A stretch of 64,000 nucleotides of DNA. Origin: Phoronis australis (lineage: Eukaryota > Animalia > Phoronida). Within the stretch, counting starts at the first letter, position 1. Every line of letters starts with the position of its first letter. Positions 8,248 to 33,755 of this stretch are shown here, one piece after another. The notes under the pieces are model-generated. The model did not search any database. It saw only the letters and a list, made by a program, of their open reading frames with translations, and had not been told where the DNA came from. The DNA lies in the NCBI GenBank assembly GCA_002633005.1, contig NMRA01000624.1, forward strand, positions 111,109-175,108. Reading direction: 5' to 3'. A program made the position numbers and the translations under genes.

Positions 8248-8388
8248 CACCCCGTCTGTGTAAGGATGTAATCGAAAACTGTGATGCTTTCGCGCGCCTC
8301 AGCCACTGGTGCACGGCGTATAAAAGTTTGGCAAGTAAATACTGCGAAGCTTATTGCGGCTTTTGTACAGGACAGTCAACAAGGACAG
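8248..8388 (+). CDS. ShKT-domain exon 1 (internal exon, phase 1-1)
   Basis: Acceptor tttacag|CA and donor ACAG|gtaagt bound a 141-nt exon. It translates as (A)PRLCKDVIENCDAFARLSHWCTAYKSLASKYCEAYCGFCTGQSTRT, with the ShKT pattern CxDxxxxC...C...CxxxCGFC. It is missing from the ORF track. Confidence 0.88.
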
Positions 8389-8573
8389 GTAAGTGTGAGG
8401 ACATCAACTGTGTCGTGAATTGAAACGGAATCTTGAATAGCCTGGTAACCTATACGATTAGAAACGATGACCAAGTTAGTATTAACCTCAGGTTTGGCCA
8501 ACTTCTCAAACCAAGCACGTGTTTAGGCCTCTGTGCCAATATCCGAAATCAAGCGTTTTTATGAAAACTAATT

Positions 8574-9330
8574 GTTACTTGGCAAATTAAATTTTAGCCA
8601 AGTATATTGTTCTGACACTACGTTTGTTTCTTTTTTGTATGTTCGCACTCCACAGGTCGCATTTTTCGTTCTATTTTCACGAAGTTTTCACACCACCTGT
8701 AGTCTCAATTCCTCTTGTGTTTTTGGTCATGATCGGAATCAAAATGGCGGACGGGGCGGCCATTTTGCTTTCGAATTCAGATTCAAGTGCTCATAGAAGA
8801 CGCAATTTGTGGCGTAAACAAATGTTAGTCGAAGGTCATTGCTGCAGACATTTACTTCAAATTTACTGAAAATCGTTCACTTCCGGTTAAAGGTGGCGGA
8901 AGTATCGGCCATTGCGAATGCGCACCTCAATTTCGAGGTGAAAACGCTTTGTCTTGAGAGTGCGTTTTGTAGGTAGAATTGCATCGAAATTTTTCAGGTT
9001 TTAGTTTCTTGTAAGTGGCTATTGTGAAATGTAAGTGACCGAAAGTTGCTTTCAAGATGGCAGATCTGGCGCATTTCACCCATTTTCAGTCGTGTTGAGC
9101 TGCCATATTGAACGGGAAGAGAAAATGACGTGAATTTTTGCATGTGAATTCTCTGAGGTATGATGCTCTTTCAAATGGCCTGTGACTGTGACCAGCAAGT
9201 GCACTGTCACATTACAGTGTGTGTAGTTCAAAGATTCACTAAAAGGAGTGTCATCCAACAAGTGGAGAGTCCTTCAGCTTGGATAGCAGATATATTATTT
9301 CGGTTGATTGACTGGGCGCCAGCGTAGTTT
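8574..9330 (-). mobile_element. Probable Helentron-like non-autonomous element in the intron after ShKT exon 1
   Basis: Starts with the hairpin tacttggc-aaattaaatttta-gccaagta exactly where homology to the other units breaks off, and contains aa(a/g)atggc motifs. The right boundary is a guess. Confidence 0.35.
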
Positions 9331-11413
9331 CTCTTCTTTGTATTTGATTTGTTAATGAACAACATGTTTAACTTGTCTAATTAGTGATTGTCATATAATA
9401 AATTAATTACTGTATTTACTCATTCTCTATCCCTTACGTTAAATTGTCGTGAGAGACCTCCGGAGTTGGTATATGATGCAACTCCGGACGGTCTGGGGTC
9501 AACAGAAAACCACAGTTCAACTGCGAGTCTACACCAATGTAACAAACGAGAGTAGTTCTACTTGCTACGTCAGCTGCAGGTATGCTTTTCTCTTTTATGA
9601 CATACAATTTGTGAGTGGGCAAAGCGTTTTCAAAATAATGTGGATAAATCAGCGGAGTGTGAGACCCCTGAGGTTCCTGTCAACTCCTCACGACAATTCT
9701 ACGTTATGCATCTACGCACAATCTTAAAGCATAGCTACATGTATCTTTTAAACAAACCCACCGTCAATTTCTGACATTCATCAAGGCCACTATCATCATC
9801 GTCATCATCATCCCCATTAAGGTTGTTTCAGTTAATTTCGCCAGGTTTCGCTCCTCCGAGCGCTTTCATTTGAGTGTTGTTCTACGTTTCACTCGTATGT
9901 GCATTCTGGTGTCATTTGTACAGGAGCACTCTCAGTTGAGGATGCAGGGCGATTGAATGTCCATGTACAGCGGTAGTATTTACATGTACGACTGGGGAGC
10001 GATCTTCCTAAATGATATTTCAAATGAGATTTCTTGTACTTCTTGACTCACTTGTGCAGCAATTGTACTGTACTGTAACTAGTACTAAGGATCTGTAACA
10101 AGCAACATTCCAATACAGTGACGATCTGATACAAACTTAACGTATCTCTATAAATAAGTGAGCACATTAGTAACTGAATCGAACCTGAATACTGTATAAA
10201 TTTTGAAAACGATTGTTTGACATCAATCATTTATTCAAAATTCCCAGTGAAGTCTGTGAGACCGAGATCTTCAACTCAGTCATATGTTATGAACAGGAAC
10301 CATGTAAACTTGTGTCCTAATAGCATATCAGACGAATATATTTCTATTCTTTTATTATTGGTATGGAAAATGGTATTCGAGAAAAACATTCCTTGGTAGC
10401 TATTGTAAGGTACATTAACTTTTTATTCGACGATAATAAAATTTAACAGAGAGATATTCAACATTTGCCTGACAAACGGTAAAGTCCAAATACATATTAC
10501 CATGGATAAAGATGTAAAGGAGATGCAGTAGAGACGGATCGACCAGTGCACGTTAGTTTGCAGAAGAGGGTCAAAACGACATTCAATAATTATATGTACA
10601 TGTATCGTTTGTACTGTGTCCTGAATTTGTCTACTTCAGAAGTTGGATTGGTTGATGAAAAATACTGCTTCACATCTCCATTTTTTCACCTTCACCGCTG
10701 TCGTCGTTGTGTATCATTCTAACTCGGGAGATGACCTATCCCTTGCGGGTATATTTTTACCACCTTCACAGCATTGCCTCAACTACTTTTACCGTAGGAT
10801 AGGCCTACAGTGTTTCGCATAATTAGTTTTCATCATAATGCGTCTTAGTCGTTGTTGTCGTAAGCTGAACATTTTTCTAGAGCCCCGGTTAACCTGGTGT
10901 TGTTCGTGTCCTCTAAGAACGACAATGTTCAAAGTTCAGATGTGTTTCCTTTATATCACTTAAATCAATCATTTACATAGGGTCCTTAATATGGATAGCT
11001 TTAACTGCTTTACAAGTGACATTTGGTTTAGTTGTTCTTGTTACTTGTGGCCATGCTTGTGGTGGTTGGATATTATCCTTGAGAATGGTGAAGTGAGTTT
11101 TATCGAAACTTTGGCATGCATAACATCAATAAATGTTAACAAAGATTGGGCTAAAATTCTTATTTTAGTTATCGGATTTAGAATATACAGTACCGACCAG
11201 ATGCAATTCACTACCCGGATACATATATTACAATAACATTCAAAACAATAATAATGAAAATTTTGGTTACACTTCTTAAGGAATCAAACATCGCAACTTG
11301 TTCTTTCAATACACCCGAGAAGGTGAAGCTGAGGTAAGCTCTTGGCTATCGCGAGTTTTCATTGGATTAACAGTAAATTTTATCATGAAGCGATTATTTG
11401 ATGATCTTTGCAG

Positions 11414-11557
11414 CACCCCAACCGTGTGTGAATAAAGAAAACAAATGTGCTGCTCTCGTCGGAAGCGACAACGACTTCTGCGTGATGCATCAACCTTGGG
11501 CAAGAGAAAGGTGCGAAGCTTCCTGCGGCTTTTGCGTAGACCTGTCAACAACTTCAG
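11414..11557 (+). CDS. ShKT-domain exon 2 (phase 1-1)
   Basis: tttgcag|CA ... TCAG|gtacgt, 144 nt. Translates as (A)PQPCVNKENKCAALVGSDNDFCVMHQPWARERCEASCGFCVDLSTTS, with six Cys. Lies inside ORF 11398..11724. Confidence 0.88.
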
Positions 11558-12575
11558 GTACGTGTGAGGAGATCACCTACGTTTTGAATGGAAACGGAAT
11601 CTTGATTCCTCTGGTAATTTTCACGGACGGAAACCGCAGCCATAGCCAGATTTCCCAAATGTGCACGTATTTACGACCGCGTGCCAATATCCGTAATCAA
11701 GCGTTTTCTTTATTATATGAGTGATTCACGATGAGGGGCATGGTGGCAAATTTTACTAGTTTGTGAATGTCGGTGTCCTTTATAGATGCGTATTCCTTGT
11801 TGACGCTGGAGGACCATCCAGTGTCCGTGGAAATATGGGACTTAATAGCGATTTTCCTAAACGACATCTCAGATGAGATATTCCATCCCGCTTGTCTCAC
11901 GTGCGCACTAATTTGTAACTACCTAAGAGGTTACAGGCAACAGTCCTGTTCAGTGACGATTTCTTGCCAGTTTAATATTTCATATTCGTGAAAGATAAAC
12001 AAATTCGTATATTATCAACTGAATCGGCCATGAATAGAGTAAAATTTTGGAAAAATTTTCAACTGGAAATGACTGTGCTTAGAATTAAGTTACGTCGAAA
12101 GCTTGGGTATATGCACTTGACCTAAGTTCTTTTCTGAATCCGTTTTGCAAGACTGCTGTAACTGACAACCAATATTCCAGAAGTCCGTTCAAAATTTCAT
12201 GTCTGTTGATTTTTAGCTCTTCGTTTTCCTTTGAGCGTCTATTGGCTCCATCGGCCGTTTTGCTTGCATAGTCTATCGACTGCGCTACCGTCATCAACTC
12301 GCTTCTAATTAAGTCCAGCTTGATCCTGAACGTCGCAAGCCACGAGGGTTCGGTGGTCGGGAATTTTGCAAACAAATTCAGAAAGCGACGTACAACTCTT
12401 TTCGCTGTTACCCCCACATACATTTTCTAACGCCAGGGTCATACTTCTAGTTTGTCGGGCCTACATTTGAGTTCGTAACAAGGGAAACTGGTCAGGAGCA
12501 CTGCGAGCAACGATCTTACTGTCTCGCCATTTTAACCGGAAGTCCGACCTTACGACAATCTTTGTTCAAAATCAG

Positions 12576-12725
12576 GCGTGCGTTCAGTAACGCGAGGACC
12601 TACGCTAGGACCTAGCTGAGATCTAGACAGAGTCACGTGTTTCTATTAAAAATATACGGCAATATCTCGCGTAATCTCGCGAAGTCTTGCTTTTTAGCGA
12701 GGTCCTAGCGTTACTGAACAGGAGG
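12576..12725. mobile_element. 150-bp PIF/Harbinger-type MITE
   Basis: Inverted repeats gttcagtaacgcgaggacct / aggtcctagcgttactgaac, flanked by CAG at 12573-12575 and 12726-12728 (CWG-type 3-bp TSD). Confidence 0.7.
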
Positions 12726-12747
12726 CAGATTTCAACCAGAAAGAAAA

Positions 12748-12775
12748 GCAGTCAGTCAGTCAGTCAGTCAGTCAG
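12748..12775. repeat. (CAGT)n microsatellite
   Basis: gcagtcagtcagtcagtcagtcagtcag, next to the 3' end of the Penelope element. Confidence 0.95.
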
Positions 12776-12809
12776 GGTACTATGAGTGTAGTAATTTGGT
12801 AGCACTGCC

Positions 12810-14070
12810 ATCAATAATTTTATACATAGTACATATTTGTGTGTGTATATTTGGGCAGCAGACCTTCTTTTATACATGTTTCATTGAAAAGTAAGCTGTT
12901 CTTAGCCTTAGATAGTTCGTTCAACAAACTTTCGTATTGTCTATATAAATGTCTTTCTTCAGATGGCAGTTGAAATAGTAGATCACCGAGTGTGAGTGGC
13001 ATCACAAACCCAAACGCATGAGTATATATGAAATAAAACGCCATGCAAAACATTTCATAGTAAAACAGTTGCTGTACAGTGTACTGCGACTAGAATTCAG
13101 TCATCCAATTCAAATAAATTTATAATAATATATATTGTGTATGATAGGTGAAACAAGAACAATGACATTAAACACGAATATAAGGTAGCATATATAATAA
13201 GAGCGCATATACAGAAGGAATTGTCATGGAAATTAGTGTACTATAAAACGTGTAAAATTTTAAAAAGTACATGCAGATGTCGCAACATATGGACATTATT
13301 TATATAACGACAAGGTGCAATGGAACCCCGTATCTTGGAAATTTATGTCAGGAGTTTCAGTTTTTATTATTGAAGCTTCAAGAATTTTCAAACGAAAGGA
13401 TTTTGTCAACAATTTCAGGACGGGAAATTTTCTGTTTGTGGAGTGTTTGAACGAGATCTTTGATGGATCCATTTCGTAAATGTATTGATAACCGGCGAGA
13501 TAAAGTGCAAGTTGTATGACCAACATACCTTGAGCAATCAGTGTTTGAACTAATACATTCATTGTGTAGGCAATTGAACTGATAAGTCAAGTCAGTTTTG
13601 GCTAATATTCGGACAGACTTTGTGCACATATTTTTTTAACCACAAGATCTTTAGTTTTACGGTTTTTGTAATGAATAATTAACGAAAGGCTATCTTCTGG
13701 CTTAACGGTCTTCACATTATTATGTATATTCCGTTTTAAAACTATTTCATCTTCAATATAACGTGAATAGAATTGGTTGCGGCAGAATAGTTTCTTGGTA
13801 AAGCCAACTATTTGTTTTAAACGCACGGGTTTCTGAAAATTGCTTCTAAAAAGCTTCATATTCTCATCAACAAACTAATTACTGTAACCGTTATTTATCA
13901 TAATTTGCTTGATGCGCTTTCACTCAGTTTTAAAGATTTCCCAATCTGAACAAGCAGAATATGCTCTTTTCATTGGCTGGTTTCATGTAAACAAACCCCA
14001 TCAAAAGTTGGTTTCTTATATACAGAGGTTTGAATGGCAGATTCATCATAATGAACCAATAGCGTCTAAG
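12810..14070 (-). mobile_element. 5'-truncated, decayed Penelope-like retroelement (RT thumb, GIY-YIG endonuclease, pseudo-LTR)
   Basis: Minus-strand peptides RAYSACSDWEIFKTE..RIKQIMINNGYS, YQFNC..C..RYVGHTTCTLSRRLSIH and RLKILEASIIKTETPDINFQ. These are followed downstream by an N-terminal-type piece (NSLLFNETCIKEGLLPKYT), as in Penelope partial tandems. Stops and frameshifts are present. Confidence 0.88.
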
Positions 14071-15583
14071 ATAACTGACCTTACGCCAGCAGAAGATCGC
14101 TGCGCCCATGATGTCACGTGATGCGGAAGTCCGACATCGCAGAATGGTTTCGTCAAACAAGACCGGTGTGCTAACTGATATTCACGCACACTTGACGACT
14201 TCGGAATGTTGCCAGTCTGTTGTTTTATATCTGAGTTATATACTACATACATGTCAACCAATACGGGAGTGACTGCGTATTTGCTCAGTAGGCCTACGTG
14301 CTTGCCGTTTCTATAGCGCCACGGCGTAGCGCCAAGATGCTACGTATTTTCAGTAATTAATGTGCGTTTTTTCCGATGTTTATAATAAACTCTTCAATTC
14401 TTCGCTTTGGCTTTTACTGACGATATTTGTCGAGATAATAACTTATCTCGAGCCTTGCTGAGGAGTTACGAAGGAATAGGAATAGACCTATAACAAAACT
14501 CACATTCATTATAGATACAAGAGCCTCTAATAGGTATGTATACATGTAGGTAGGCATGCAATGCATTTTGACTCTTGATTGACTATATTTTAACTCCTTT
14601 TCGTCAGTGCTATGAAAATGGTTGTCATGGTTATAATGAACCAGAAAGTGATCACAACTGCGGCGGGTCACACACTTAACAAAGACTGTAATCCAGAGCC
14701 AAAATTCCGATATTGGGAAGAAATATTGAAAAGTATGCATACCTTAAAACATACTTGTGTTTAGCTTTCGAGTGGTCAAACAGTGTTGACAGGCGCTGCT
14801 CATGCGGGAGTACCCACAGTTTAATTAATCCACCGTTTGCTCATTACAACGTCACTTTTAGGCATTGGAAAAAAACAGAAATTGACAGGACTTTCATCTT
14901 TGTCGGTATAACGACTGTCTGAATTACACACACCACAACACCTCTTGGCCATTTAAAATGCACATTGCAGTTGAACGTGCTTTGTCCTACAGCCGCTAAT
15001 GTTTGTCGGACAAGATGGCGACTTGAACTGTAGTCTGGAGGAGTGTCCGGAATGCAGCATTCTGATTGGTCAATCACACCTGGCATTCGTTTTCTGGCGT
15101 AAGGCCAATTTCTAGAGTTTCGACAACAGGGACATTACTTAATAGACTTTCAACATCGAAAGATGCAGGATAGGAATTTGGTGTTGCGTCAATAGATCGC
15201 AATAAATCTAAAAACTCATCACGAGATTTGACATTGTACTTACATGTAGGATAAGCACTGTTTGGTGATTTTATCTAATATTTTAGCAACTTCGTAGGTA
15301 GAGGTTAAAATTAAAGAAATTATGGGTCTCAGTGGATATCCAAGCTTATGTGTTTAAGGGTTACCGTAACACTATCCTTCTGAAAAATCACCATTAGCAG
15401 TTTGGCAATACCTCTATTGGCCATTAGCTAGCTTAATTAACGAGTTAGTTCTTTCCGGGCTTAAGACTTAAACCAGTACGGGTTTTTCTCTGTGCGGACT
15501 AAGGATTGTGATAAATGAGCCACCGGGACAATAGTAGTTGGAATTCAGAAAGAAAAATGAAATAGTTTTTGATTTCATCGCAG

Positions 15584-15780
15584 ATGATGTTGCCCCGTCC
15601 CTAACGTCTACCACGATGACATCTACACGTGCAATGGAATTTTGTTGTATCCCAATGACATTTTCGAAACTGAACTGTCTGCGTTTGTGTCTAAATCATC
15701 GAAAAGCTGAAATTAGTCCATCCTCCCTGCAAAATTACGTAGCTGATGCACATTTCCGCGTCGTGTACATGTATGATTGA
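15584..15780 (+). other. Possible Ser/Thr-rich exon downstream of ShKT exon 2, paralogous to 6073-6332
   Basis: gatttcatcgcag|AT is a phase-1 acceptor compatible with the exon 2 donor. It reads DDVAPSLTSTTMTSTRAMEFCC... to a stop at 15780. Confidence 0.3.
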
Positions 15781-17291
15781 ACACACGACGTATAACGCAC
15801 ACATCCTTATCTGGGTTCAAAATACATTTAAATGTAGCTCGGAGCAGGTCCAAAGATTAACCTGATTTCAGATCTAAAGAATGTAAACTAATGTATTTTC
15901 CATTACGTGTACCTCGACAGCGTGTAGCTACATGTACAACACGCCTTTGTGCCAATTTCAGTGCAGATTTCTGCACAACGTTCAAATCGTGAACAAATAT
16001 CGGATGTAAGAAAACCTTGCTGCACTTGCTCATATTTACTATCACATAGTTGTGAAATGTAAAATCTGAAATGTAATTTTACGGAAGCACAACATATACG
16101 TGTATATTACTTACTCTCGGTGTCAAAATTTTATGTTATGTGAAATCTCACTTTGTAATGGTGAAATATAGATCAATTGGCATGCTCTGTTCAAAATCTC
16201 TCGTGCACATACATGTATACAACATGAGCCACGACCTGGGCCCATGTTCTTATCTTTTTACTCGAAAGTTCGTTTGGCATTGTCGACTCTACTTTTGTGC
16301 GCACCCTATTATTCTATGCTCGAGTGCATCATGACTTTTGTCCTAGTTTGATAAACCCAGCATTAAGGCTAAAAGCTCGTATTTGAACTCGAAATCTCAG
16401 TATTTACTCGAGTTTGTAGTACGAATATCAGGGTCATCAAGTGCAAACATGGAGTAGAAACTCTTAAGCGTAACAATAACGTAGATGTAGTCAAGCAAAG
16501 TCTAATAACCCTTTATATTGAGTTCGCACAAAAGTAATATAGAAATTGCCAAAAATAATTTCAAGTTCGTTTCGAGTACAAAGATTAAATTCTCGATATA
16601 ACTTAATGTTCTTGTGATATATATTCCAGTGTATTCTTATTTACATGTACAGTGTATTGACTTGATTCTTCGCTTCACTGTGCTTGGTTTGCCGTTTTAT
16701 GCACGATGTGGTTTTAATCGTTTATGCCATCAAAGATACAGGTTTTCACGTCTAGAGCCCATATCTAAATTGCATGTACGTTCTAATAATTCAGCAGACG
16801 TCTAAGATATCTGCCTGACCCATTAGAGGCATTGCTGACCACTTTGATTTAGTATTTTTGTTTTGATGCACTTTGTTTTTTCACATATTCACAACTATTT
16901 GCATCACTGGCGTCATCATTGCCGTCTTAGCTGTGGTATTTTGCCACGTCTCGCTCTCTCAAGTTATCTAATTTTGATGTCTGCCGTTACATGTAAATTG
17001 CTGCATGTAATTACTAGACGATATCTGTTTACTGTAAAAATGTGTTAACAAGTAAGAAACGCTTGACTACGATCAAACATAAAGTAAGGAATTCAAAAGG
17101 ATACTGTCAACGAAAGATTGAATTCAATATTAAGTAAACATTTTCTCATGTTAGTCTTCCCTACCAATTACAATACATCAAAACATTGCGCCTAATTATG
17201 TAGATTGCGCCTTTTTGACCAAGTATTTCCAGCTTGATGAATGTTTACATGTTCACCCAATATGTCCATTGTAATCGTAATAACAATAAAA

Positions 17292-19662: not shown

Positions 19663-20196
19663 AACAATAAAAATAATTATAATAATGACAATTATAATTA
19701 GAACAAATTCAACATATTATTTCACATATCCATATAAACAATGGAAATTCAAAAATGTATTTCTTCATCAGCACTCCACTATTGCGAGGGGTTTTGTTAC
19801 ACTTCAGGGAAGGTGGCGCTAAGGTGAACCTTAGGCCACCTTACGTTACGATGAATATTTAACGAATTAAAGTAATCCACATTAAGGTGATGTTATGGTG
19901 GCTTTGAGCATTTGGATTTATGTTTATATTGAATTAGTGCTTAGTTAGTATGTCCTTACGATCAGGTGACGTCGAGTCGGACATCCATGGGTCAAAAGGT
20001 AGTCACCGGAACCCCAACAATAATTTAATCAATAGTTGTAACTGTATACCTACAAACAGAACCTATTAAAATATTGAATCTTGATATTCGTGTAATTGGC
20101 CGTGTATCTGTGTGACCCTCTGTTTTAATTCACATACTTTTCCTGAATTAACGATAAACTGTATACTATGTAACGTCAACTGGTGGCGTTTTGCAG

Positions 20197-20337
20197 CACC
20201 AAGAGCGTGTGTGGATGAAATCCAAGACTGCGATAAGGTTGAAGGAGGCAAAACAGTCTGCCTCAAATATGAATCGTGGGCAAGGGAATACTGCAAAGTC
20301 TACTGCGGCTTTTGTGCACCACCGTCGACCACCACAG
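20197..20337 (+). CDS. ShKT-domain exon 3 (phase 1-1)
   Basis: ttttgcag|CA ... ACAG|gtgagt, 141 nt. Translates as (A)PRACVDEIQDCDKVEGGKTVCLKYESWAREYCKVYCGFCAPPSTTT. Confidence 0.9.
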
Positions 20338-20668
20338 GTGAGTGGGAGGCGATCACCTGGGCTCTGAATGAAAAAGTTATCTTGAATCATATAGTAACGT
20401 ATACTGTGAGAAACAATGATATCCAGGTTCTCTATATTGTATACACTATTTAGGACTACGTGGCCATATTCGAAATCGTAAGTTTTTTTATGAAAACTGT
20501 TTATTGTATTTCTTCGCAATGATGCGCTTGTTGTTAAATTTCATTCATTTGTACAGGTTGGTGATGTTTGTTCAGGCATATTCTTTGTTGCGAATTCCGT
20601 GGAATATTCTCTATTCACGCTTGCGCCATAGCATTTCGAAAACGAGGCTGGGTTAGCGCGAAAACAAA

Positions 20669-23583
20669 ATGGCGGGTGTTAGCAGTGCAGCGTGGTCGCT
20701 GAGTTTAGAATATGTTTGTAAAATTTCTCAAGATGTTATCGATCGTTGGGCTGATGAAGTATGCAGAATCCCAAGCAGAAAGCAACAGAAAGGTCACAGC
20801 AACTGGATTGAAGGCTATTTTCATGACATAGAAGGTATTTATATTTCATTAAACGTTGGGATTTTCCAGGCATTTCCTCCTGTTCAGTTTCCTTTGGGCT
20901 TGGATATTGACAAAATCACTTCGTTTTTGTGTTCGATCTCTTGCTTATTATTCGTTCATAAAACTTGATATTTTATATTGAATTCATGCGAGTAACGTAC
21001 GCATTCTTCGCTACTCTTGTTAAGTATTGAACTGCGAGAAATCCACGTCCGGATTGTCCAGAGTGAACTGTGCTGGCTTGGCGAAAGCGACTCACGGCCT
21101 ATTGTCGGCATGGCAACCTATACATGTATGAGCTCAGCTGATTGTAGTAGCTTGAGGTCGACTGTGCCGCTAAGTTCTAAAAAGTTGCCAACCTACAGTG
21201 CAAGTTATACCATGGGCCACTATTCTGTAATTTTTGGTGACAGGTTAGAAGCCAGCAGCTTGACATTCTTTACTCGTAAATGCAACAAATATTTCCTTTT
21301 AAGTTTACATGTAGTAGTAAGTGGCCTACTGACAGTGCCACGCTAACATTAAAAATGCTTATGGATTACATTATAAAAAGATTGCGTGCAGTAAATGCTG
21401 ATGAGGCTTTCAAACCTTTAAGTAATTCCGAAAATTTTGGACTGAAGTCTGGTGGATCTAGGGGGTGAACATGCCCCCACCCCCTTCCAAACATCATCTC
21501 CCACTGTAAAACAAAATGTGGTCCATGTAAATTTTTGAAGAACATAAATTTCCTGGAATTAAATTACTCTAAATCGTAAATGCTTTATTTTCAGTGAAGC
21601 AGGACCAGGATTGCTAAAAGCAAAGTGTAACCATTCCATGCGAAAGAATAATGCTCCATACATGTATATTTCACAGGTAAACATACTTTACTTAAGTGCA
21701 AATTCTGCCTCGGCTCACGGTGGCTAATCCATTTAAAGTAGTTGTGACTTCAAAAAAGAAACATTTTTTGGATAACTGCCTCCTTTAATACCTTAACTTT
21801 GATTTACCGTTTTATATAAATCGAAATAAATTCAAAGGCAGGCATATTGAGAGATTCTTCACCAACCACTTCCCACTTTCCGACATTATGCCGAATGTGC
21901 GTCATTGTCAATTTCTCGCGTTGCAATTTTGGATTTATTTCAAGTTTTGAATATCGATTTCTCGACGATGCGCGAACAGATTGCTATGAAATTTTGAATA
22001 CTTGTTATTTGATACATTTCGAAGGGAAGTAACCGTGGTTACTAGTTTTGGATTTCATTAGTTAAGCCAATGTTGACTAATAGGTGGACATCCGAGACCA
22101 TGTCAGCCTGTCACTTCCCTTTACTAACAAAATCCAAATACCCATGATTAGACATTTCAACTTTATCTGGTATTTAAGTTGTTCATTTGTAACTAAAATG
22201 TTGAATAACAAAGATTGATATTGCAGATAGAATGTCAATTTGATTGGTCTAACATATGCCTTATGTCATTTCCAGGTTAAAGTCAAGCAGGGTGCAACAG
22301 TCGAGATCGGGGAGTCCTTGTGTACCTGTAAGGCAGGCAACGGCCAATGCAGCCACGTGATAGGTCTCCTCTATACTCTTTATCACTTCAAGAAGATGGG
22401 TTTTAAGAGCGTTCCACCCATCTTCGCAAAAACCTCCCTGCCCCAGGCATGGCATGTACCCCACAGGCAAGATGGGATAATGGTAAATCCTGTTGATGTC
22501 ATGGTTGTAAACAAAGTGTAGCCAGTGAAGACCAAGAAAAAATACAGGAAAGTGGTAGAAGGAGTTGTTCCAAAAATATTTTGCCCGGTGGAACAGCCAA
22601 TTACACCTGTAACTTTCACACGTCAGCTCGTATATAACCTTACCTCTATTAAATGTGACTCACATGCTCTCATTCTGCTGAGTAACTTGAGTGAACTCGA
22701 ACTGTCCGACTTTAAATTTGGTTAAGTACCACGAGGAAGTGTGCTATCGTTCCAACAGCCAGTGCCAGAGAAAATCATGGGGGACATTATTCATATTGAT
22801 TCTCCAGATCTGTCTATGTTTGACTTGTTGTCACTGTCAAATATGTACATGCCAACTTTGACAAAACGCAGATGGACAAACACAAAGGTTTGCACATTGA
22901 TAAAGACACTGCAATGCTTCTTGAGCAGTAGACGATGCTTCAGTCAGAATGCCAACAGTGAAGAGCAGCTAGAGCGGAACGACTGACTTCTAGTGTTTTT
23001 AAACGCATCGTCTCCAGAAGGAAAGTCTTTGAGAAATTAGCCAGTTACTTGACCACTACTAAGCGGTTGACCACTCAAGCTATGCAGCATGGGATTGATC
23101 ATGAACCTATCGCAGCCAAGAATTATGCAGACATGATGCATACCAGTGTCTATCTATGTAGGTTTGTGGTCTATCCCTATGCTCCATATCTTGGTGCGTC
23201 ACCGGAGAGAAGAGTGTATGACCCGTTGGCTAATCCACAGTTTTGTGTGCTCGAAATAAAATGTCCAGTTGTGCAGTCATTTAAAGAAAAAAGTACTTGA
23301 AGGAGAGAGAGATAGTGAATACAAGCTGTCAAAGCACCACGACTACTACCATCAGGTCATGGGCCAGATGGCCATCACAGGGTCGGCATGGTGGGATTTC
23401 TTTGGTCAGGCCAAAGCAGACTATCATTTGGAACGCATCTACTTTGATGCCTCATTGTGGGAAGTGATGAAAGTGAAACTGGACAAATTCATTTTGAGTA
23501 TTTCCTGTAGTTACTATTATGTGAATTTTAAATCGAACTGTCTGAAATTGACCATTTACTGTGTGCTAACACGTTCGTTGTAA
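20669..23583 (+). pseudogene. SWIM zinc finger + YqaJ (lambda-exonuclease-like) gene of the ISL2EU element; exons ~20669-20834, 21595-21676, 22276-23583
   Basis: SWIM motif CTCKAGNGQCSHV. YqaJ motifs RLTSSVFKRI, AMQHGIDHEPIA, YLGASPERRVYD...LEIKCP and HDYYHQVMGQMAITG. GT-AG introns are present, along with several stops and frameshifts. Confidence 0.9.
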
Positions 23584-23640
23584 TGTGCAGCGTGTTTTTA
23601 AATATAAGTATGTATTGATGATACGATATCTTTATATTAC

Positions 23641-26600
23641 CAGGAAGAGATAACCAGGAAGGGACAACTAGCTAAACCGGCGTTTTTGGCCTCCTTCCCC
23701 GAATTAATTTCAGGACTTATGTTTTGTTTAAAAGGAAACAGATGATTTTATCAGAGAGATTAAAGCTTTTTCTATAGAAGAATATAAAAAAACTCACTTT
23801 GCAACCTTAAACAGTGGTGTAATTGTACTTTGAAAATATCGACTTCAGCGCACTCAATCGCAACTTCCCACACGCAGTCACGTGTATTTAGCTTTTCCGT
23901 CGATGTATAGATGGCGCAGTAGTCAAGTACTCCCTCATTTGCATATCAAATTTGCATGTGGGAGTTCTGAGACTCTCGTCAGTTGTTGGTCGAGCCCTTG
24001 GGTGAATAAAGCGGTGACCTTCCGCTGAGAGCACCAGCTGATGAAGATATCACAGCGAACTCGATCGCTTCGCACTCAGGAGGTGAAAACACTCTCATGA
24101 CCGCAGTTTTGAATTCCAGCTAAGCAAGCCCTATTTCGAGGAGCGGACTTTGAATTGTTTTCGTCCCCTGACAGTGGACAGCAGAGAAGATTAAAATGAG
24201 GTCAACATCGAACTTTCAGCGGCTACCTATCGTGTCGACAAAAGTTTGAAGTGTCAGAACCATAGACGGAGCGCGCGGGTATTCTATGATTCCTGTTCTT
24301 CTTCAGTTGACGAAAACATTGCTATCGGCATAAAAAATGACCGTGGGAAATTCTTTTTGAGGTAGATACCTGTATCCAATAATAAATATTAATACTCTGT
24401 AATATCTCACCCTCCGAGTTTCGTTTCTTTGACGTTTATTTAGGTTGCGGTATCGTGAAACAACGCCGTCGGGTGAGAGAAGTTGCACCAAATAATTGGA
24501 ATTAGCTGCAGTTCTTCCTTTAGAATGCCCGGCCTCAACTGTGCCGTTTTCTTGGCAAGTCTCTTGCCTAACGATTTTTTTCTGAGCATTGAAGACATCG
24601 GCTTTCTCCTGCGCCAAACAACCTTTTGTCTGCTACAGAAATGTTATGCCTAATTTTCTACCATTTTAGCACACTTTGTGGCTCTGCTACAATTAGCACT
24701 GCCACAATCGTATTTCTTAATTCCGCCACAGTATGCATACTGGGAAGTTAATTTTGCTAGGTGTTTTTTCAAAATTAAGCCACAACAGTAACTGTTCATC
24801 ATTAAATGCCTCAAATTCCTCGACGCCATGGACATTTCCGTCAACACAAAACGCGCCCTTGCCATTCTTAAAAAAACGTGTATATGTGCTACAATTGCTT
24901 CGAAGGACCGGCAGTAACCGTGGCTGGAATGTTGGCAGCTTCGTGACTAGGTCTACATCTAACTCCTGTTGAAATTCGCCATACTTCAAAATTCTTGTTT
25001 GCACAGGTGCTGGTGATTGCCATTCAATGGTTTTCATAATAAAAGACTAGAAATCCGAGTTGTCACACACGTCCACTGGCTTGGTGCTGCCTTACATTTT
25101 CACTGGCCTCCTTGCTACAGTCGACTTGCGCAATAGACGAATTAGTGTCCACATTTGTGGTCATTTGCCGGGTACAGGCCCATGAGACAAGTTGCAGCAA
25201 CAAATTCAGAACGAATCCTTAAACCTTTTTACACGCACAATTAAATGCGCAAAAATGCTCCTGTATTTCTTAAACCTTTAATTTAATGCTCAAGCTATAC
25301 AACGAATACGTGTTGAAGCACAACATTGACCTTGGACCAAAGATGGACTCCTTGCATCAGAACCTTAGTAAGCGGGGGGAGGGCGAGTCCAACCCCCCAA
25401 AAAATTGCATACCTCAGGGTCAAACCATGGCAACCGACAAAGGTGTGGGACTGGGGAAGGACAAAAAAGAAAGACTTCGAATACTGATCAGAGAGAAAAT
25501 TCAAGAGAACATTGACAACTCGGTATCAGTGTATGGTTTACCATTTGAGGGCCCTGTCCTGGACAATTGTCGTTAGGGTCTCCGTTTATGCAGCATAGGT
25601 CGTCTAAGCGTCCTTGAAAATGTGCACTTAATCATTCATACATGTACATGTATATCGAACATTCGCGAAAATTTGTAAAGCAACAGTTTTGCGGAGCGTA
25701 TTACTTCAGTCCAAGTTTTTCAGTGGTCCGTAGGCGGTGCACTACGGGGGGGGGGGCTGAGAGGACTTTAGCTTTCACTTTTTTTAGTACTGCGCCCTCT
25801 ATACACCTCAGGCATGACACTGCCAACTACTCACGAGGGGAAGTTGAGATTCCAAATTCATCAAAAACACAAAACATTCGTGCACAGCACAGAAGCTGTC
25901 TTGTAAGAAATGGCGATGCGTCACTGAACTTTGTTGAAGCCTGAAGGCTGACTTGCAAAAATTCGATCCATCATCAGACCACCATATCGCAAAGAAGTAC
26001 ATTAAACGATAACAGTGATATTCATGAATGTCGGGCAGCTCTAAATGCTTCATTGAATTAAAAACTAGACTAATGAAATTCAAAAATTTACAAACCGTAG
26101 ATCGAAAAAGAAGTTCAAGTCATTGCTCATCAATTTGGAAAGGTTGTCTTTGATGCTTGTAGTTCCCAGTAGTATTGTGCAATGAATTTAGGTTCTTCTA
26201 AACCGAATCGTTTGCTTGCCATTCCCGTGCATTCTGTAAAGGCTGGACACGTCGTGACTCAGTGACGCACCCACGTTAAAAATAAGGTGTAGTCATGCCG
26301 CCAGTAGCCTGCCCGCGTAGAATCCGCGCACAGTGATTGACTGGAAAAGAACTTGAACTGCACTGAGGGGTTGAAGTTGTGTCATTTTGGGACACCGCGT
26401 TCATTTTCCCCAGCCGCCCGGGAGAAGCTGGAGCAGTGGCCGTGTTTCAACAAGGAGTTTTGACACAGCTCTGTACGCCAAGGATTTCGGGATCATATCT
26501 TTCAAATAATCATCAGGAAAGGACCGTATTGAAATGAACTTTTCCCGAAACTGGGTCAAAAAAACGACCTTGGAGCCAGAACACGGGTATAGGTTCAAGT

Positions 26601-27347
26601 TAAGCCGCACGTCTCAAATGAATCATAGCGGAGCTGACCAGCGACTAGCATTAGTTCGTCGAATTGCGCATGAACCATAGCAGAGCTCACCAGCGACTAG
26701 CATTAGTTTGTCGAATTGCGTATGCATGGATCAGACTTCCCTGCGACGCCACGACACCGGCCACCGTGGCGGGAGCAGCTAATTTCTTGACTAACACCTG
26801 CTGGATTTAAGCAAAATGACGAAGTCCACGCATACACACATGCAAGCGTATCCAAATACAATTAAATGTTTTTCCATGTGAAACCATTCAATGTTCTTTG
26901 AACATTGACTTGTGTGCGTTCTTAATTTTCTTAGATCTGCCCAATCAGGTAGAACTGTGTTTCAAGTCATTCACTATAGGCAACTGAGGGTTCAAATTGG
27001 AAGCCCGCGTCGTATGATGTTGTATGACGTCATATGACGTAGGAGATGCGAGCCTCATTTGCATATATTAGTGACATCTGTTGGTTCAAAAAAGAGGATC
27101 ATGCCCGAGTACATGCCTGGGAAGAGGCATCTTTTGGAAGGGTAAAACAAGTCATGTTCAAAGCATCCTAGTGCCATTAATATGCAGTATTTGGGGACCA
27201 AAGTGGTGTCATTTTATCCCTAAAGAGTTAAGCTTTCAAACACAATGCTTGGATTCCAGACGACTTTAACATTTACTTTTGAAATCACCTTTGAAAACAC
27301 GTTAAAATGCGCTAAAACAGTTGTCCCTTCCTGGTTATCTCTTCCTG
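23641..27347. mobile_element. 3.7-kb TIR element nested in ISL2EU, possibly P-element superfamily, non-autonomous
   Basis: Perfect 29-bp TIRs caggaagagataaccaggaagggacaact (23641-23669 and 27319-27347), with the 7-bp TSD atattac at 23634-40 and 27348-54. The superfamily is inferred only from the CA.. ends and the 7-bp TSD. Confidence 0.88.
26624..26728 (+). repeat. Two-copy ~52-bp tandem repeat
   Basis: catagc(g/a)gagct(g/c)accagcgactagcattagtt(c/t)gtcgaattgcg(c/t)atg occurs twice. Confidence 0.9.
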
Positions 27348-27516
27348 ATATTACTTATAAAATTCGTCACATTTAGCACATAGTATTGCTTATGATTGAA
27401 ATATCACAGTGTAAATCTTGTGACCTGCTACATGGCATCTCATGCTTTTGAGCAGTTTACTAACAATTGTTAAATACTAACAACTCCATGAGCCCCGAGT
27501 AACACCAGTGTCAAAT

Positions 27517-29769
27517 CTAAAACAATGGACCTTTGGATATCGTCAAAAGAGCACACACCGTCCACAACTGATTGGCAGAACCAGCTAAACTCAGTGGCAA
27601 TACCCCATCAAGTATGTGGTATTCCTTTACCCTTCTGATGGCACTTTCCACGTGAATTCTTACCCTAGCTATTTCCTGAGTTTCGGTGACTTCCTTTCTG
27701 CTAAACTTTCCCTTCTCACCCAAAAAATGGTGAAATGTTCAGAGTTGCATTCCTAGCACTAAGAAGATCACTAATAAGGAAACCCTTATCGGCCATCACA
27801 TCGTCACCAGCCTCAACCACGTGCACTATACCACTCAACTTGGTGATCTCTTTATCAGAGATGCACCCTGTGTACAAAAGGCTGACAAACGCGTGGCTTC
27901 CAAAAGGACATATGCCAACAAGACCGTTAAAGTTTGGGTGGCTTTTGTAGCTTGAGTAAGTCTTTGAATTCAAAACCTTTGAACTTGGTGTCTGCACCTA
28001 TCTTTCACTTCAATCCAGTATCACCCTCGTTTTAGGATACGTCTCTTTAAAGCATGGCGGCATGTTTGCATCAATCTTCGCTCGCGAACACCAAATTGGC
28101 AAAGACACTAACATGAAATAAAGATAATTAACCCAAGTGATCAGAGTGCGACTAACAGTAGATTGGGATACATTAAACCTCACGGATAAATCCTGTTCAA
28201 TTAGGCCTTGCCTTATCCGACACAAAAATAAAACGAACTGGTCAATCAGTTTAAGAGAGTCGGATTTGAAAGCAGTACATTTCACACCATTCGTATTTCC
28301 GCTTCGTCGTCGAACTTGAGTCCACCTCAACATTCCCTGTGCAGTTGGTTCTAATGTCAAGTATAGCGTTTTCAATGTTTCGTAGTTCTTGAAGCCTGTG
28401 AAAAACAGGATGTTTGCAGAGTCCGATGAAAAACGTTGCATTGCATTCTTGGCAGCCAACTCTTCAATTTGCTTTATAGTACCTTCTTAAAGTTCTCCTT
28501 CACTTCTTGGCTTGCAGTTGTAGTCAAGTTCTTCGGATACACACGGAGTCTCAGTCAACTTGTCATATTATGGGTTGAAACATTCTGTGTAGCTCCACAC
28601 TGAAAATAATAAGTTTTTATATGACTATCATATTCACTCTGATTAACATTCAGGACATTACAAGTGCCGAACCGTCTGCATTCTCTCAACAGTTTTCTTC
28701 AGAGGCAGGTTTATAACAGCTTCAAATCGAGAAACTTGAGACCAAAGGGTAGCCACTGAGCTGACCTAACACAAGGCATGTCTTTGTTTTGTCTTGCGGC
28801 AACCTAGACCAGTGTTTTGGTCTCGTAAAACGGAATTTTTTTAAGAAAGCGAACGTTATAAGCGAGTGAAAAGAGTTTACTATGTAAGCAAAATTACCAT
28901 TTATAATGAATTAAGTGCATTCATTAAATCCTACAATATCAAGAAGCGACATCCACAGAGCAATGGGAGCAATGCTTATTTCCAAGTGTAAACTGAGAGT
29001 GAATTAAAAACAACACTACTGAAATGAATCAAATAATCTAAGGAAGAATAATCTCTTTGCAATACCTGCAAGGAACTCTTTTTTCGGCGCTTTTCTTGCC
29101 ACAGCCTTCGACCAGTCAAACTGGGATGGGACAGCACCAGGTTTAAGTTTACGCAGTCCTGCTAATATTTTGACCATGTCTTCTGCTTTAAAATGTTGAG
29201 AGCAAACTCTAGTGCCTTTAGTAATTTAAAACAAAGAAGAACAGATAATAAAGAACAAAAACTTTACTTAATCGATAAACAAAAAGAAGTTATTTTTACA
29301 AAAGTTTTTAAGAACAAACACAGCCGATGGCATGAAGCCATACAACGTGACCTAGATTTTGTAACCCGGCCGGACTGAACCAAATGCCGAGTTAGCTATG
29401 CTGAGGCAAAATAAGCAATACCGCACTTTACAAAAGTGCGATGAGTCGACCAAGTATGTCAACCATGACATGACTTGCAATACAAAATAAATGTAGAGTT
29501 TTTGCGATTGCTTTGATGGTATCATTAGAGTGACGGGGCCACAAAACGCAGCGAAGCTCGAGCGATTTGCGAGCTGAGCTCTATGAATCGATCGACGGCA
29601 GAAAAAAAAAACAACTAACCTGAAAGTGGGGGCTGATATCACGGCGAATTTTCACTACCCATTGTTTCCTGAGGTTCTCATCAGCAGGAAAATAGTGAAG
29701 TGACAATTGTTTTCCCGAGTCATAGCGTGAATCGTTCGTACAATTTGGGACACAACATTGAAGCGCCAT
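27517..29769 (-). pseudogene. THAP-HTH-DDE (DDE_Tnp_4/HARBI1-like) transposase of the ISL2EU element, intron-containing
   Basis: The THAP domain is split over two exons (MALQCCVPNC..LHYFPADENLRKQW; RVCSQHF..LKPGAVPS). HTH: LCRIRQGLIEQDLSVRFNVSQSTVSR. Catalytic motifs: TRVILD, YSSYKSH, VMADKGF, IARVRIHVESAIRRVKEY. The gene is frameshifted. Confidence 0.92.
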
Positions 29770-30539
29770 TCTCGTTGTCCTGTCCTCGATGAGCTGCTGA
29801 TCACACAGCCTCGTTTTCAACCCGGAGACATGCTAGCGTGAATAGAGTCTATAAAATATTACGCGACATTTTGGGAGCATTTTTTCTAAGTGAAGTGTCA
29901 GATGGGATGTTTTTTCATGAGTAACCCATTTTCGAACAATTAAAGAGGAATAAGCGTCCAATTTGCTGACGAATTCTAGCAAATTTAATGTTTCGAATTC
30001 TTAAAATTTACATGTAGTTGCAGAGAAAACACGTGAAAATGCAATACGTCTATGTACATTTTAACACATTTTAAGATTTTTCAGGCATTTGTAATTGACA
30101 AGCTACAAAGCTCAATGTTTTCTTGCGAAATTTCATGTTTTATGTCTTACCGAAATCAATGTTGAAGATCATGATTTTAGAAAGAAAACTCGGTCATGTG
30201 ATTACGTGTGGGCACCATTTCTGTGCCATAATAGAGTGTTACCGTCATCATTGATACTTTAATTATTCAAGAAAATTGTATTCACAAATAGATTACTTGG
30301 TAGCTAAGGTACACTTACCTAACCGCTTTATTCACCATCAATACTGGTGTAAACAAGTTCAAGTATGGGCTGACAGACGAGTGCACACTAATTTTTAGAA
30401 GAGACACGAAACGACATTCATCAAGTTCTGTTAGGACCATGAACTGCTTACAGGTGCTATTGGTTGATGAAAAATACTGCTTCACGTTATATTATTTCGA
30501 CGTCGTCGCGTCATCGTGGCCATTGCATCAAGGTGCAGG

Positions 30540-31330
30540 ATTCTAGAATTACCACAATTGTCCAAAAATATCTTCATGTAGAAGTGTCATATCCAGATAT
30601 CTCTATATTTCGCTAATTCCATCAGCAGAGATTTTTCTGTAGCGCTAATATACACCAATGTTTCTAAACGAAATGGTAGGAGATACTTGCAACAGTTACA
30701 TGTATATCCAGATATCCATAGATTAGCCACTTTAGAAGATAGCGCTCGGTTAAATAGATAATTCTAGATTAGCTAGATACTGCTAAATTAAAAAGACATT
30801 TCCAGATAATTCTAGATTTGCAAATTTGGAAGATATTAGTATTTCAGTCCACGCTATTATGCACTCCACAAACATATACCCACAGACGTTTTAATATTAT
30901 AATATAATGTTACTGCAATAGCGCTAATCAAATCTCTAAATTAGACTTTTTTTCAGCAGCACTAAAATGACTGTGTTCAGTTACTGAATTAGAGGATATT
31001 TTTATTGCAGTAGCGCCAGTAATGTCTATTAACTAGAAGATGTTTGTTCAGTAGTACTAAAATTATCTATTAGAAATAATGTTAATGCAATAGTGTTATC
31101 TTTTTAATTTAGAAGGAGTCGATAAAAAACTTTCCCACGGACATATACCCGTTATTAGCGCTTTTGCGCTATTGAAAGAGCATTGTCTTATAATTTTGCG
31201 CTATCGAAATAGCATTATCTACTAATCTAGACTGATCGAACGAGAGAGCTCTCTGACGAAGATATATCTGCTTTTGACGCTATTGCGCTATTGGATTTGC
31301 ATTATCATCTAATTTAGAAATGCCAGGCAC
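30540..31330. repeat. Degenerate minisatellite-like tract, paralog at ~36630-37040
   Basis: Recurring ctagatt.gc.aa..tagaagata / tagcgctaa motifs at roughly 40-45-bp spacing. Confidence 0.45.
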
Positions 31331-32124
31331 CATAGTTCTCTCATGAAGATCAACAAGCCATATTAATGCTAAAGATACATGTATGTCTGCTATTAAAGCT
31401 ATGGCACTTTTAGATTTGCAATATCTTCTTATTCGAAATTTTGTTGTGCACTTTAGTTTTCCTGATGAAAATACTATATGTAGTTCTATGTTTGACATAC
31501 ACTGTACAGTGTATTTATCCGCTACTGCACAGTCTAATAACCATTTATCTTGTGTTCGCACAATTAGAGAAATTTTAAAAAATAATTTCAAATTCGTTTC
31601 GAGTACAAAGATTAGATTCCGGGCCTAGGCCACATACATGTACTCGAGAAAAGACGGCTGACATTGTAACTGGAAATTATGTTTTACTTTGAGTGCTGTT
31701 ACATATAGTCTTTGGAATAAGAAGACACATGAACCAGTGGCTGTAAGTATTACCTGCGTACATGTACATACATGTATTCTCGTTTCAGTTGCCACAACAC
31801 CACCGAAAACTAAATGTAAGTATATGGAGTTACTCTTCTTGCTATCAAAATCGTAATATGCTTTAACTGTTTTTTTGCATCTTGGTTAATTTTTGAGCGA
31901 TACGTTCGTCAGTATTTTCCTGCGTCATCAATGTATGTCAATTCTTTGACAGTTTGTAAAAACAACATGTCACTTTTCTCATCTGATTGACATGAAAACT
32001 ACAAAAATCTTGGCATACTGGTAAATTGCTGATTGTAAATAACTGTCCAAAATCTCGTGTGAAAAAGGAGAAATGCCGCTCGTGAGATGTAAGACATAAT
32101 ACTTGGCTGTAAAAAGATATCGGG

Positions 32125-32196
32125 TCCTCGGTAGCTCAGCGGTAAGAGCACTAGACCGTCGATCTAGAGACATGTGGTTCGATTCCCAGTTGGAGA
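32125..32196 (+). pseudogene. tRNA-derived sequence (tRNA-Asp(GTC)-like pseudogene or SINE head)
   Basis: A box tagctcagcgg and B box ggttcgattcc are present. The stem ctaga/tctag encloses the loop ccGTCga. The acceptor and T stems pair poorly and U33 is missing. Confidence 0.65.
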
Positions 32197-33614
32197 TCCT
32201 GACATATCTGTGTTCGTTTGATACAAAAATCTTGTATCGTTTAAGTATTTCGAGCCCTGCTTTTCATTGAAATTTACCGCAAAATGATACTGTGGTGGTT
32301 GTTGTTTTCGCTGCTACTTAAAACAGAACCTTGGTAAATTTGGAATATGGACGGGTTTCACTGATCAATTTCCGACGAATGACATCCGTTTCTCGCTACA
32401 ACGAAATGTTCTTCTGATAGATATTCCGATGGATTCTCATTTATTGACTTGATACTTGGCTTCCTTGATCTTGGTTAGCCATCTAATGTACGGTGATATT
32501 TTAATCGTTTATGCGGTCAACGATGCAGGTTTTCCCGCCGAGAGCCCATATCTAATTTGCATATACGATCTCATAATTCAGCTGATGACTAAGACATCTG
32601 CCTGACCCATTAGAGGCACTTCTGACCACTTTGATTTATTATGTTCATTTTGATACACTATGTTTTTCCATATACTTGTATCCACAACTATGCGCGTCGC
32701 TGGCGTCATCATTGCTTCAGTTGTATTACGCCACGTCTCGCTCTCTCATGTTCTCTCATTTTCATGTCTGCCGTTACATGTCAATTTTTGCGGGTAATTA
32801 CTAGAAGATATCTGTTTGCGGTAAGAATGCGCTAGCAAGTAAGAAAGGCTCGACCACGATCAAACATAAAGTAAGGAATTCAAAAGGATACTGTCAACGA
32901 AAGATTGAATTCCATATTAAGTAAACATTTTCTCATCTTAGTCTTCACTACCAATTACAACACATTAAAACATTGCGCCTAATTATGTGGATTGCGCCTT
33001 TTTGACCAAGTATTTCCAGCTTAGTGACTGTTTACATGTTCATCCAATATGTCCATTGCAATCGTAATAACAATAAAAGTAACATTAATAAGATAATAAT
33101 AATAATGATTATAATAATTACAACTAATACAACATATTTCACATCTGCATATAAACAATTGAAATCAAAAATATATTTCTTCATCAGCAATCTAATATTG
33201 CTAGCGGTTTTATTACACTTCACCGAAGGTGGGGCTAAGGTGAGTCTAATTCCACCTTACGTTACGATGAACATGTAAAGGATTAAGTTAATCCACATTA
33301 AGGTGATGTTATGGTGGCTTTGAGTAAATGGAATTACTGTATGTAGTGAATAAATGCTCAGTTAGGGTGACATTTAGATCAGGTGACGTCGAGTCAGTCA
33401 CCCCAGAGGCCGAAATGTAATCACTGGAACCCCAAATTTAACTTAATCAATAGTTACTGTATACCTACAAACAAAACCTACTAAAATATACAATCTTGAT
33501 GTTCATGTAATCGGCTGTAAATCTCTTTGACTCTAGGTTCTAATCCATCTTGTCTTTTTCCTGAATTAACAATAAATTGTATCCTATGTAACGTCAAGTG
33601 ATGGTGTTTTGCAG

Positions 33615-33755
33615 CACCAGGAGCGTGTGAGAATGAACTCCAAGACTGTCATATGTATGGAGCAGGCAAAGCAGTCTGCGTCAAACATGAATCATGGGCA
33701 AGGAAATACTGCGAAGCCTACTGCGGGTTTTGTGTACCACCGTCGACCACCACAG
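33615..33755 (+). CDS. ShKT-domain exon 4 (phase 1-1)
   Basis: ttttgcag|CA ... ACAG|gtaaat, 141 nt. Translates as (A)PGACENELQDCHMYGAGKAVCVKHESWARKYCEAYCGFCVPPSTTT, in a different frame from listed ORF 33609..33851. Confidence 0.9.

What the first reader, a model, noticed from the sequence alone, without database searches (positions are those of the whole stretch)
8248..33755. Array of diversified, single-exon ShK-toxin-domain cassettes built by tandem duplication
Seen: four 141-144-nt exons on the same strand, all phase 1-1 and stop-free. All start CACC and end in a Ser/Thr tail, and each has homologous intron flanks. Cysteines and CGFC are fixed while the loops vary strongly. Established: ShKT domains occur in K+-channel-blocking peptides and in secreted or mucin-like proteins, and symmetric exons can be added or skipped in frame. 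Inference: this is either one multi-ShKT precursor, a cassette array for combinatorial or mutually exclusive splicing of a peptide repertoire, or a cluster of small genes. Start and stop exons are not established.
Basis: partly seen in the sequence, partly recalled or inferred. Interest (0 to 1): 0.85.

Follow-up and report, generated by a model that had tools for sequence, protein, structure and literature searches.

The report
One gene, serial ShKT domain exons
Four look-alike exons in this animal genome are spliced one after another into a single messenger RNA that encodes at least four ShK-toxin-fold domains on threonine-rich linkers, likely an ordinary secreted mucus- or matrix-type protein of a mollusc-like animal rather than a toxin library made by alternative splicing.

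Summary
The four exons are real: 141-144 nt, phase 1-1, Pfam ShK matches, ShKT-like fold. No skipping joint was among those listed, and reads entering exon 3 agree fully with exon 2's end. A third run has no reads on the three exons it was laid on. So this is one gene grown by tandem duplication of a micro-exon + ShKT-exon unit; units 2 and 3 lost the micro-exon. It is not a gene cluster, and not a cassette array in these samples. The K-channel Lys-Tyr dyad and dibasic sites between domains are absent. All 12 named relatives are mollusc multi-ShKT proteins, and domain divergence (44%) equals their median. Overall dN/dS is about 1.2; positive selection is not shown. Start and stop exons were not found. 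The scan's look-ups showed no earlier ShKT finding.

The parts
5321..5361 (+). Probable upstream coding exon (41 nt, phase 2 to 1); no signal peptide in it
   Evidence: 6 reads in X1 join 5359 through the micro-exon letters to exon 1 (table 5c); AG/GT ends and an open frame into the ShKT exons. Weak support.
7323..7343 (+). Micro-exon 1, 21 nt, phase 1-1, Thr/Pro/Ala linker
   Evidence: Joint 7343>8248 GT..AG, 35+28 reads, plus 24+15 listed as 7338>8243; ends
8248..8388 (+). ShKT exon 1
   Evidence: Pfam ShK 22 bits; joint to exon 2, 43+54 reads
11133..11297 (+). Decayed copy of the micro-exon region in unit 2; acceptor and donor lost, not spliced in
   Evidence: Alignment to 7217-7386; nhmmer E 0.0036; exon 1 joins exon 2 directly
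11414..11557 (+). ShKT exon 2
   Evidence: Pfam ShK 19.5 bits; joint to exon 3, 47+54 reads
20197..20337 (+). ShKT exon 3; its unit lacks about 770 bp that hold the micro-exon in unit 4
   Evidence: Pfam ShK 21.2 bits; 16495-16592 matches 31527-31619 and 16590-17296 matches 32390-33083; joint to 31789, 78+81 reads
20608..29850 (.). About 9.2-kb insertion in the intron after exon 3, ISL2EU-like DNA transposon, decayed; not part of the protein
   Evidence: Absent from unit 4; inverted-repeat-like ends; YqaJ at 22962-23297 (+) and HTH_Tnp_4 at 28013-28486 (-)
31789..31815 (+). Micro-exon of unit 4, 27 nt, phase 1-1, Thr/Pro/Lys linker
   Evidence: Joints 20337>31789 (78+81 reads) and 31815>33615 (77+83 reads)
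33615..33755 (+). ShKT exon 4; spliced onward to a further micro-exon-like sequence that is not in the window
   Evidence: Pfam ShK 18.5 bits; loose ends behind 33755, 105+90 reads; no match in the window
192..291 (+). Untested candidate for a further upstream exon (100 nt, 49% GC, open in a phase that fits 5321; an inner acceptor near 257 would also fit)
   Evidence: Sequence only; not covered by either read lay

Best explanation
The four exons belong to one gene and are spliced in series, with two threonine-rich micro-exons, into one mRNA for a chain of at least four ShKT domains, which likely is a secreted, uncleaved mucus- or matrix-type protein rather than a toxin precursor. Shown: serial splicing, one open frame, ShKT sequence pattern, reads in two of three raw-read runs. 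Inferred from flank homology: the array grew by tandem duplication of a phase 1-1 unit (micro-exon + ShKT exon with introns), giving the pairs 1/2 and 3/4; unit 2 lost its micro-exon by decay of the splice sites and unit 3 by a deletion; transposons later widened the introns. Inferred from relatives: secretion, O-glycosylated Ser/Thr/Pro linkers, and a role as a multivalent disulfide-stabilised binding or cross-linking protein at an epithelial surface. A fifth unit likely lies past the window or in an assembly gap.
For: Junction reads in X1/X2: micro-exon 1 > exon 1 59/43, 1>2 43/54, 2>3 47/54; 3 > micro-exon 78/81, micro-exon > 4 77/83, onward from 4 105/90. All five joints within the window are GT..AG, on one strand, and the joined frame has no stop. 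Loose ends before exon 3 are exon 2's end at agreement 1 (63 and 56 reads). The RNA path matches the genomic anatomy: micro-exons are used only where their splice sites survive. Linkers of 11, 11 and 20 aa are rich in Ser/Thr/Pro with no dibasic site. 12 of 20 looked-up relatives carry names, all 12 mollusc, several named mucin-like, matrilin-like or VWA proteins. 110 of the 150 best hits have three or more such domains; their median within-protein identity is 0.44 and this gene's is 0.44 (rank 60 of 110). Lys plus Tyr/Phe at the dyad position: 0 of 4 here, 2 of 510 in relatives. Level is moderate, roughly 54-62 RPKM.
Against: No signal peptide, start or stop exon was found, so secretion and the full domain list are untested; relatives also carry VWA (12 of 60), TSP1, reprolysin, lectin or astacin domains, so this may be the tail of a larger protein. 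Only two expressing samples of one study, tissue unknown, about 18-19% of each run read. dN/dS is about 1.2 overall and pN exceeds pS for domains 1-2 (P 0.003, 1 of 6 pairs), faster than a purely structural protein would suggest. No read on exons 1-3 in X3 fits a gland-specific product as well as an epithelial one. PMC6409789 notes that lack of the dyad does not exclude channel activity.
Confidence: 0.75

Rival explanations
1. One gene spliced in series, but the product is a venom, salivary or defence effector whose domains diversify under selection, as in Cumia multiShKL proteins or Nematostella NEP3.
For: All-or-none difference between runs (X1, X2 versus X3). pN 0.43 versus pS 0.20 for domains 1-2, bootstrap P 0.003; pN 0.16 versus pS 0.09 for 3-4, P 0.15. 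No close relative of 84-2000 aa found. Best structural matches are channel-active or antimicrobial ShKT peptides.
Against: Site test M1a versus M2a not significant, p 0.18; omega 1.18 does not differ from 1. In 4 of 6 pairs pN is below pS. No dyad and no dibasic sites between domains, whereas NEP3 has Lys-Arg cleavage sites (PMC5832418, passages). Level is moderate. Divergence is at the median for relatives.
Confidence: 0.17
2. The exons are alternative cassettes, combined or mutually exclusive, giving a peptide repertoire in some tissue or stage.
For: All exons are phase 1-1, so skipping keeps the frame. One of six Mytilus isoform pairs swaps its ending and has one more ShKT-pattern match. 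One search shows only 15 of 55 joints, so rare skips may be hidden.
Against: Every consecutive junction has 43-105 reads per run; no skip among 15 of 55 joints shown or 15 of 18 (smallest shown 3 reads); exon 3's upstream partner is exon 2 at agreement 1. Five of six Mytilus isoform pairs differ only in linker stretches outside the ShKT domains.
Confidence: 0.06
3. A cluster of separate small single-ShKT genes.
For: Units are spaced 3-13 kb apart and share several hundred bases of flank.
Against: Direct exon-to-exon splicing across all units; the shared flank holds only a micro-exon; no start or stop exon per unit was seen.
Confidence: 0.02

Closest known systems
Molluscan multi-ShKT proteins with Thr/Pro linkers (Mytilus trossulus XP_063433373.1 'mucin-2-like'; Crassostrea XP_011454420.2 / XP_052705181.1; Haliotis XP_046372059.2; Dreissena XP_052221273.1; Mercenaria and Mactra VWA + ShKT proteins), names
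   Same: Several ShKT domains of the W-A-x-x-x-C-x-x-x-C-G-F-C type (Trp at that place in 402 of 510 domains, and in 3 of 4 here), Thr-rich spacers, no dyad, about 44% identity between repeats.
   Different: No orthologue found: identity at most 52% in the 25 best-scoring rows. Ends and accessory domains of this gene are unknown. Exon structure of the relatives was not examined.
Cumia reticulata multiShKL, CAP-ShK and M12-ShK proteins (PMC6409789; abstract, introduction, first part of discussion and passages read)
   Same: Mollusc ShKT repeats from internal domain duplication; dyad mostly lacking.
   Different: Those are mostly salivary-gland products of a blood-feeding snail; tissue here is unknown.
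Nematostella NEP3 family (PMC5832418; passages read)
   Same: Several ShKT domains in one precursor.
   Different: NEP3 has a signal peptide and Lys-Arg cleavage sites and is a shown toxin; no dibasic site lies between the domains here.
Toxocara Tc-MUC-1 to 4 and limpet P-vulgata_14 (as described in PMC7333891; passages read); C. elegans MUL-1 (PMC13273113; abstract read)
   Same: Dyad-less ShKT/SXC domains in mucin-type or mucus proteins; MUL-1 is a non-venom ShKT protein.
   Different: Different architecture and lineages; shared function not tested.
ShK-type Kv blockers and ShKT structures (PDB 2mcr, 2k72, 6dri, 7l2g, 2lg4, 7od2)
   Same: Six-cysteine ShKT fold; best Z 4.3, rmsd 1.6 over 35 residues.
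   Different: Mostly single free peptides; the Lys-Tyr pair seen in 2mcr aligns to Ser/Pro and Trp/Leu here.

Membership tests
ShKT domain (PF01549) | Profile match and six cysteines ending C-x3-C-x2-C | tested here: met
   4 of 4 match with E at most 3e-3, 2 of 4 above the curated cut-off; spacing
ShKT domain (PF01549) | ShKT fold with short helices | tested here: met
   Model of domain 3, pLDDT 76, only 2 of 5 models above 70; all 10 of 48,161 chains with Z of 2 or more are ShKT or CRISP cysteine-rich domains, but best Z is only 4.3; Foldseek gave no match
ShKT domain (PF01549) | Disulfide pairing C1-C6, C2-C4, C3-C5 | not tested
   Pairing taken from PMC6409789; model coordinates were not inspected
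ShK-type Kv channel toxins | Lys-Tyr dyad between the third and fourth cysteine | tested here: not met
   0 of 4 domains have Lys at the place aligned to the 2mcr Lys-Tyr
ShK-type Kv channel toxins | Release as a free peptide from a precursor | tested here: not met
   No dibasic site in the three inter-domain linkers; the only one lies inside domain 4. Other proteases are not excluded.
ShK-type Kv channel toxins | Channel block; venom tissue expression | not testable with these tools
   Needs electrophysiology and tissue-labelled RNA
Multi-ShKT secreted proteins of molluscs | Three or more ShKT domains in one frame with Ser/Thr/Pro linkers | tested here: met
Multi-ShKT secreted proteins of molluscs | N-terminal signal peptide | tested here: inconclusive
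   5' end not reached; hydrophobic ATG candidates in 1-7322 have no read support
Mutually exclusive or combinatorial exon arrays | Reads that skip copies, and no joints between neighbouring copies | tested here: not met
   Neighbouring copies are joined by 43-83 reads per joint per run; no skip joint among those listed; two expressing samples only

The most novel reading that the evidence does not exclude
A tissue-restricted, lineage-specific multi-ShKT defence or venom protein still growing by exon-unit duplication, whose inter-cysteine loops are under conotoxin-like diversifying selection and act on targets without the classical dyad.
Probability: 0.15. Interest if true: 0.5.

Novelty: new member of a known kind. 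Interest (0 to 1): 0.18.

Why it matters
As it stands it is a clean example of a domain repeat growing by duplication of a symmetric micro-exon + domain-exon unit, with linker length set by loss of micro-exons. That mechanism and multi-ShKT proteins are both known. It would matter more if the fast amino-acid change proved to be selection on a venom or immune effector, since ShKT domains are drug leads and few molluscan ones are characterised (PMC6409789).

Tried and rejected
No whole genome is held, so the gene could not be followed past the window. No RNA holder was listed by the run index; the runs laid came by species label. Homologue search with the four-domain alignment, longer proteins: 0 of 259 candidates scored (weak evidence). 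tblastn of 150 relatives found no further convincing exon in the window. The next micro-exon was not found with up to 3 mismatches; the best looser matches had 4-6 mismatches in 17. Foldseek: no match. PDB sequence search: only 2mcr as a relevant row, E 8.2. ESM Atlas: first hit a nematode ShK cluster, score 0.90, adds nothing. Circular RNA considered for the 'goes back' joint 33752>31786 (6+7 reads) and judged a likely mapping artefact: reads carry a variant at 20317 that makes the last 28 nt of exons 3 and 4 identical. The 0.88 agreement of loose ends behind exon 3 likely comes from exon-4 reads laid there, since one search lists no micro-exon skip. Positive selection by site model: not significant. 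Paper searches with no hits: 'ShKT + alternative splicing + intron phase', 'ShKT + exon duplication', 'NEP3 + ShKT domains + exon + Nematostella'; the library lacks most subscription papers. No supplements were read.
Full report
Observation. A six-frame scan found four cysteine arrays ending in CGFC on the + strand. They sit in exons 8248-8388, 11414-11557, 20197-20337 and 33615-33755, each with an AG acceptor, a GT donor, phase 1-1 and no stop. All four match Pfam ShK, two above the curated cut-off. DNA and protein profiles made from them find no fifth copy in the window. A model of domain 3 (pLDDT 76; 2 of 5 models good) matched 10 of 48,161 solved chains at Z 2 or more, all ShKT or CRISP cysteine-rich domains, though the best Z is only 4.3.

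Splicing. Three raw RNA runs and one contig set were laid on 4600-24500, and the two expressing runs on 20100-37200; about 18-19% of each raw run was read. X1 and X2 cover the exons almost only with first mates on the minus strand, which in the usual stranded library means a + strand RNA. X4's contigs gave nothing on exons 1 and 2. Joints, X1/X2: 7343>8248 59/43 (two listings summed), 8388>11414 43/54, 11557>20197 47/54, 20337>31789 78/81, 31815>33615 77/83, all GT..AG. Behind 33755, 105/90 reads go on into a 27-letter micro-exon-like sequence followed by CAC, the start of every ShKT exon here, so a fifth unit is likely (three letters only). That sequence is not in the window. No skip joint is among the 15 of 55 joints shown or the 15 of 18, and reads entering exon 3 agree fully with exon 2's end (63 and 56 reads). 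Skipping of exon 3 alone is less tightly bounded, as only 12 of 270 loose ends were shown. Six reads in X1 point to a further upstream exon at 5321-5361. The joined frame is open.

How the array was built. Flank homology shows that the duplicated unit held a micro-exon, the ShKT exon and introns. Units 3 and 4 are the closest pair (86% in the exon, 80-84% in flanks); an unrooted four-taxon tree without support values pairs 1 with 2 and 3 with 4, so the order of events is inferred, not tested. Unit 2 keeps a decayed micro-exon region without acceptor or donor. Unit 3 lacks about 770 bp that hold the micro-exon in unit 4. The RNA uses micro-exons exactly where they survive. A 9.2-kb insertion with inverted-repeat-like ends and YqaJ and HTH_Tnp_4 remnants follows exon 3, the gene pair of ISL2EU transposons (PMC4482050, two passages read).

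What the protein resembles. A profile search of 1.84 billion representatives gave 207 hits at E 0.001 or better, 150 listed. Of these, 110 have three or more such domains. Of 20 looked up, 12 carry names and all 12 are molluscan; that suggests, but does not show, a mollusc-like host. Of the top 60, 54 match ShK, 12 VWA, 6 TSP1, 4 reprolysin, 3 C-type lectin, 1 astacin and 1 chitin-binding domain. Identity between repeats here (0.44) is the median for relatives, so the 'strongly varying loops' are ordinary for this class. The Lys-Tyr dyad, described as key for Kv block (PMC6409789), is absent in 4 of 4 domains by alignment to 2mcr; that paper also warns that absence does not exclude activity. 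The linkers carry no dibasic site, unlike NEP3 (PMC5832418, passages). Of nine pairs of cluster members compared, five of six Mytilus trossulus isoform pairs differ only in linker stretches outside the ShKT domains, one swaps its ending and has one more ShKT-pattern match, two pairs differ at a terminus, and one pair appears to be two genes.

Against the plain reading. Amino-acid change is fast: omega 1.18 overall despite six fixed cysteines, and pN exceeds pS for domains 1-2 (P 0.003; 0.018 after correcting for six pairs). But four pairs go the other way and the site test is not significant (p 0.18; my own codon-model script, four sequences of 47 codons, low power). With the all-or-none expression, this leaves a defence or venom role open at about one in six. 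Secretion is inferred only from relatives; the 5' and 3' ends were not found, and 192-291 is an untested candidate exon.

Verdict. One gene with serially spliced ShKT exons, a new member of a known kind: multi-ShKT proteins from internal duplication are described in molluscs (PMC6409789; abstract, introduction, first part of the discussion and passages read). Three searches found no paper on ShKT exon structure, which is weak evidence of absence. The scan's own look-ups showed no earlier ShKT finding. O-glycosylation of Thr-rich linkers, dibasic processing and the strand convention rest on my general knowledge. Interest 0.18.

Noticed in passing
window 20608-29850: ISL2EU-like DNA transposon remnant (YqaJ at 22962-23297 +, HTH_Tnp_4 at 28013-28486 -, inverted-repeat-like ends), with a nested repeat bounded by inverted arms at 23618-23669 and 27319-27372.
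   Followed up: partly
window 17298-19605: Insertion in the intron before exon 3, absent from unit 4, made of nested tandem copies (periods about 430 and 1180 bp); reads with first mate on + pile up here, most in X3 (depth up to 211), probably from copies elsewhere.
   Followed up: no
window 33752 to 31786: 'Goes back' joint in 6+7 reads that looks like a circular RNA of micro-exon plus exon 4; likely mis-laid exon-3 reads.
   Followed up: partly
window 34143-35852, 37041-37938, 53426-55021: Dispersed repeat of about 1.7 kb in three copies; one inverted copy spans the 211-N gap at 37213-37423, which could hide sequence.
   Followed up: no
window 46589-47691 and 47693-49596: Near-identical duplication (96-97%) beside a single N at 47692; may be an assembly join of two haplotypes.
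   Followed up: no
window 39033-41489 (-): Several ORF fragments of about 110 aa, one with a Cys-rich end, that look from recall like a broken transposon gene; no Pfam match at E 0.05.
   Followed up: partly
window 50733-51167 (-) and 63570-63998 (+): ORFs that from recall resemble a LINE C-terminal region and a retroelement fragment; no Pfam match at E 0.05.
   Followed up: partly
window 2021-2193, 12569-12732, 45446-45728: Short palindromic, MITE-like repeats; 12568-13231 draws many reads from both strands.
   Followed up: no
window 20252 and 20317: All exon-3 reads of X1 and X2 differ from the assembly at these two places, one silent and one amino-acid-changing; likely alleles, untested without matching DNA.
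   Followed up: partly
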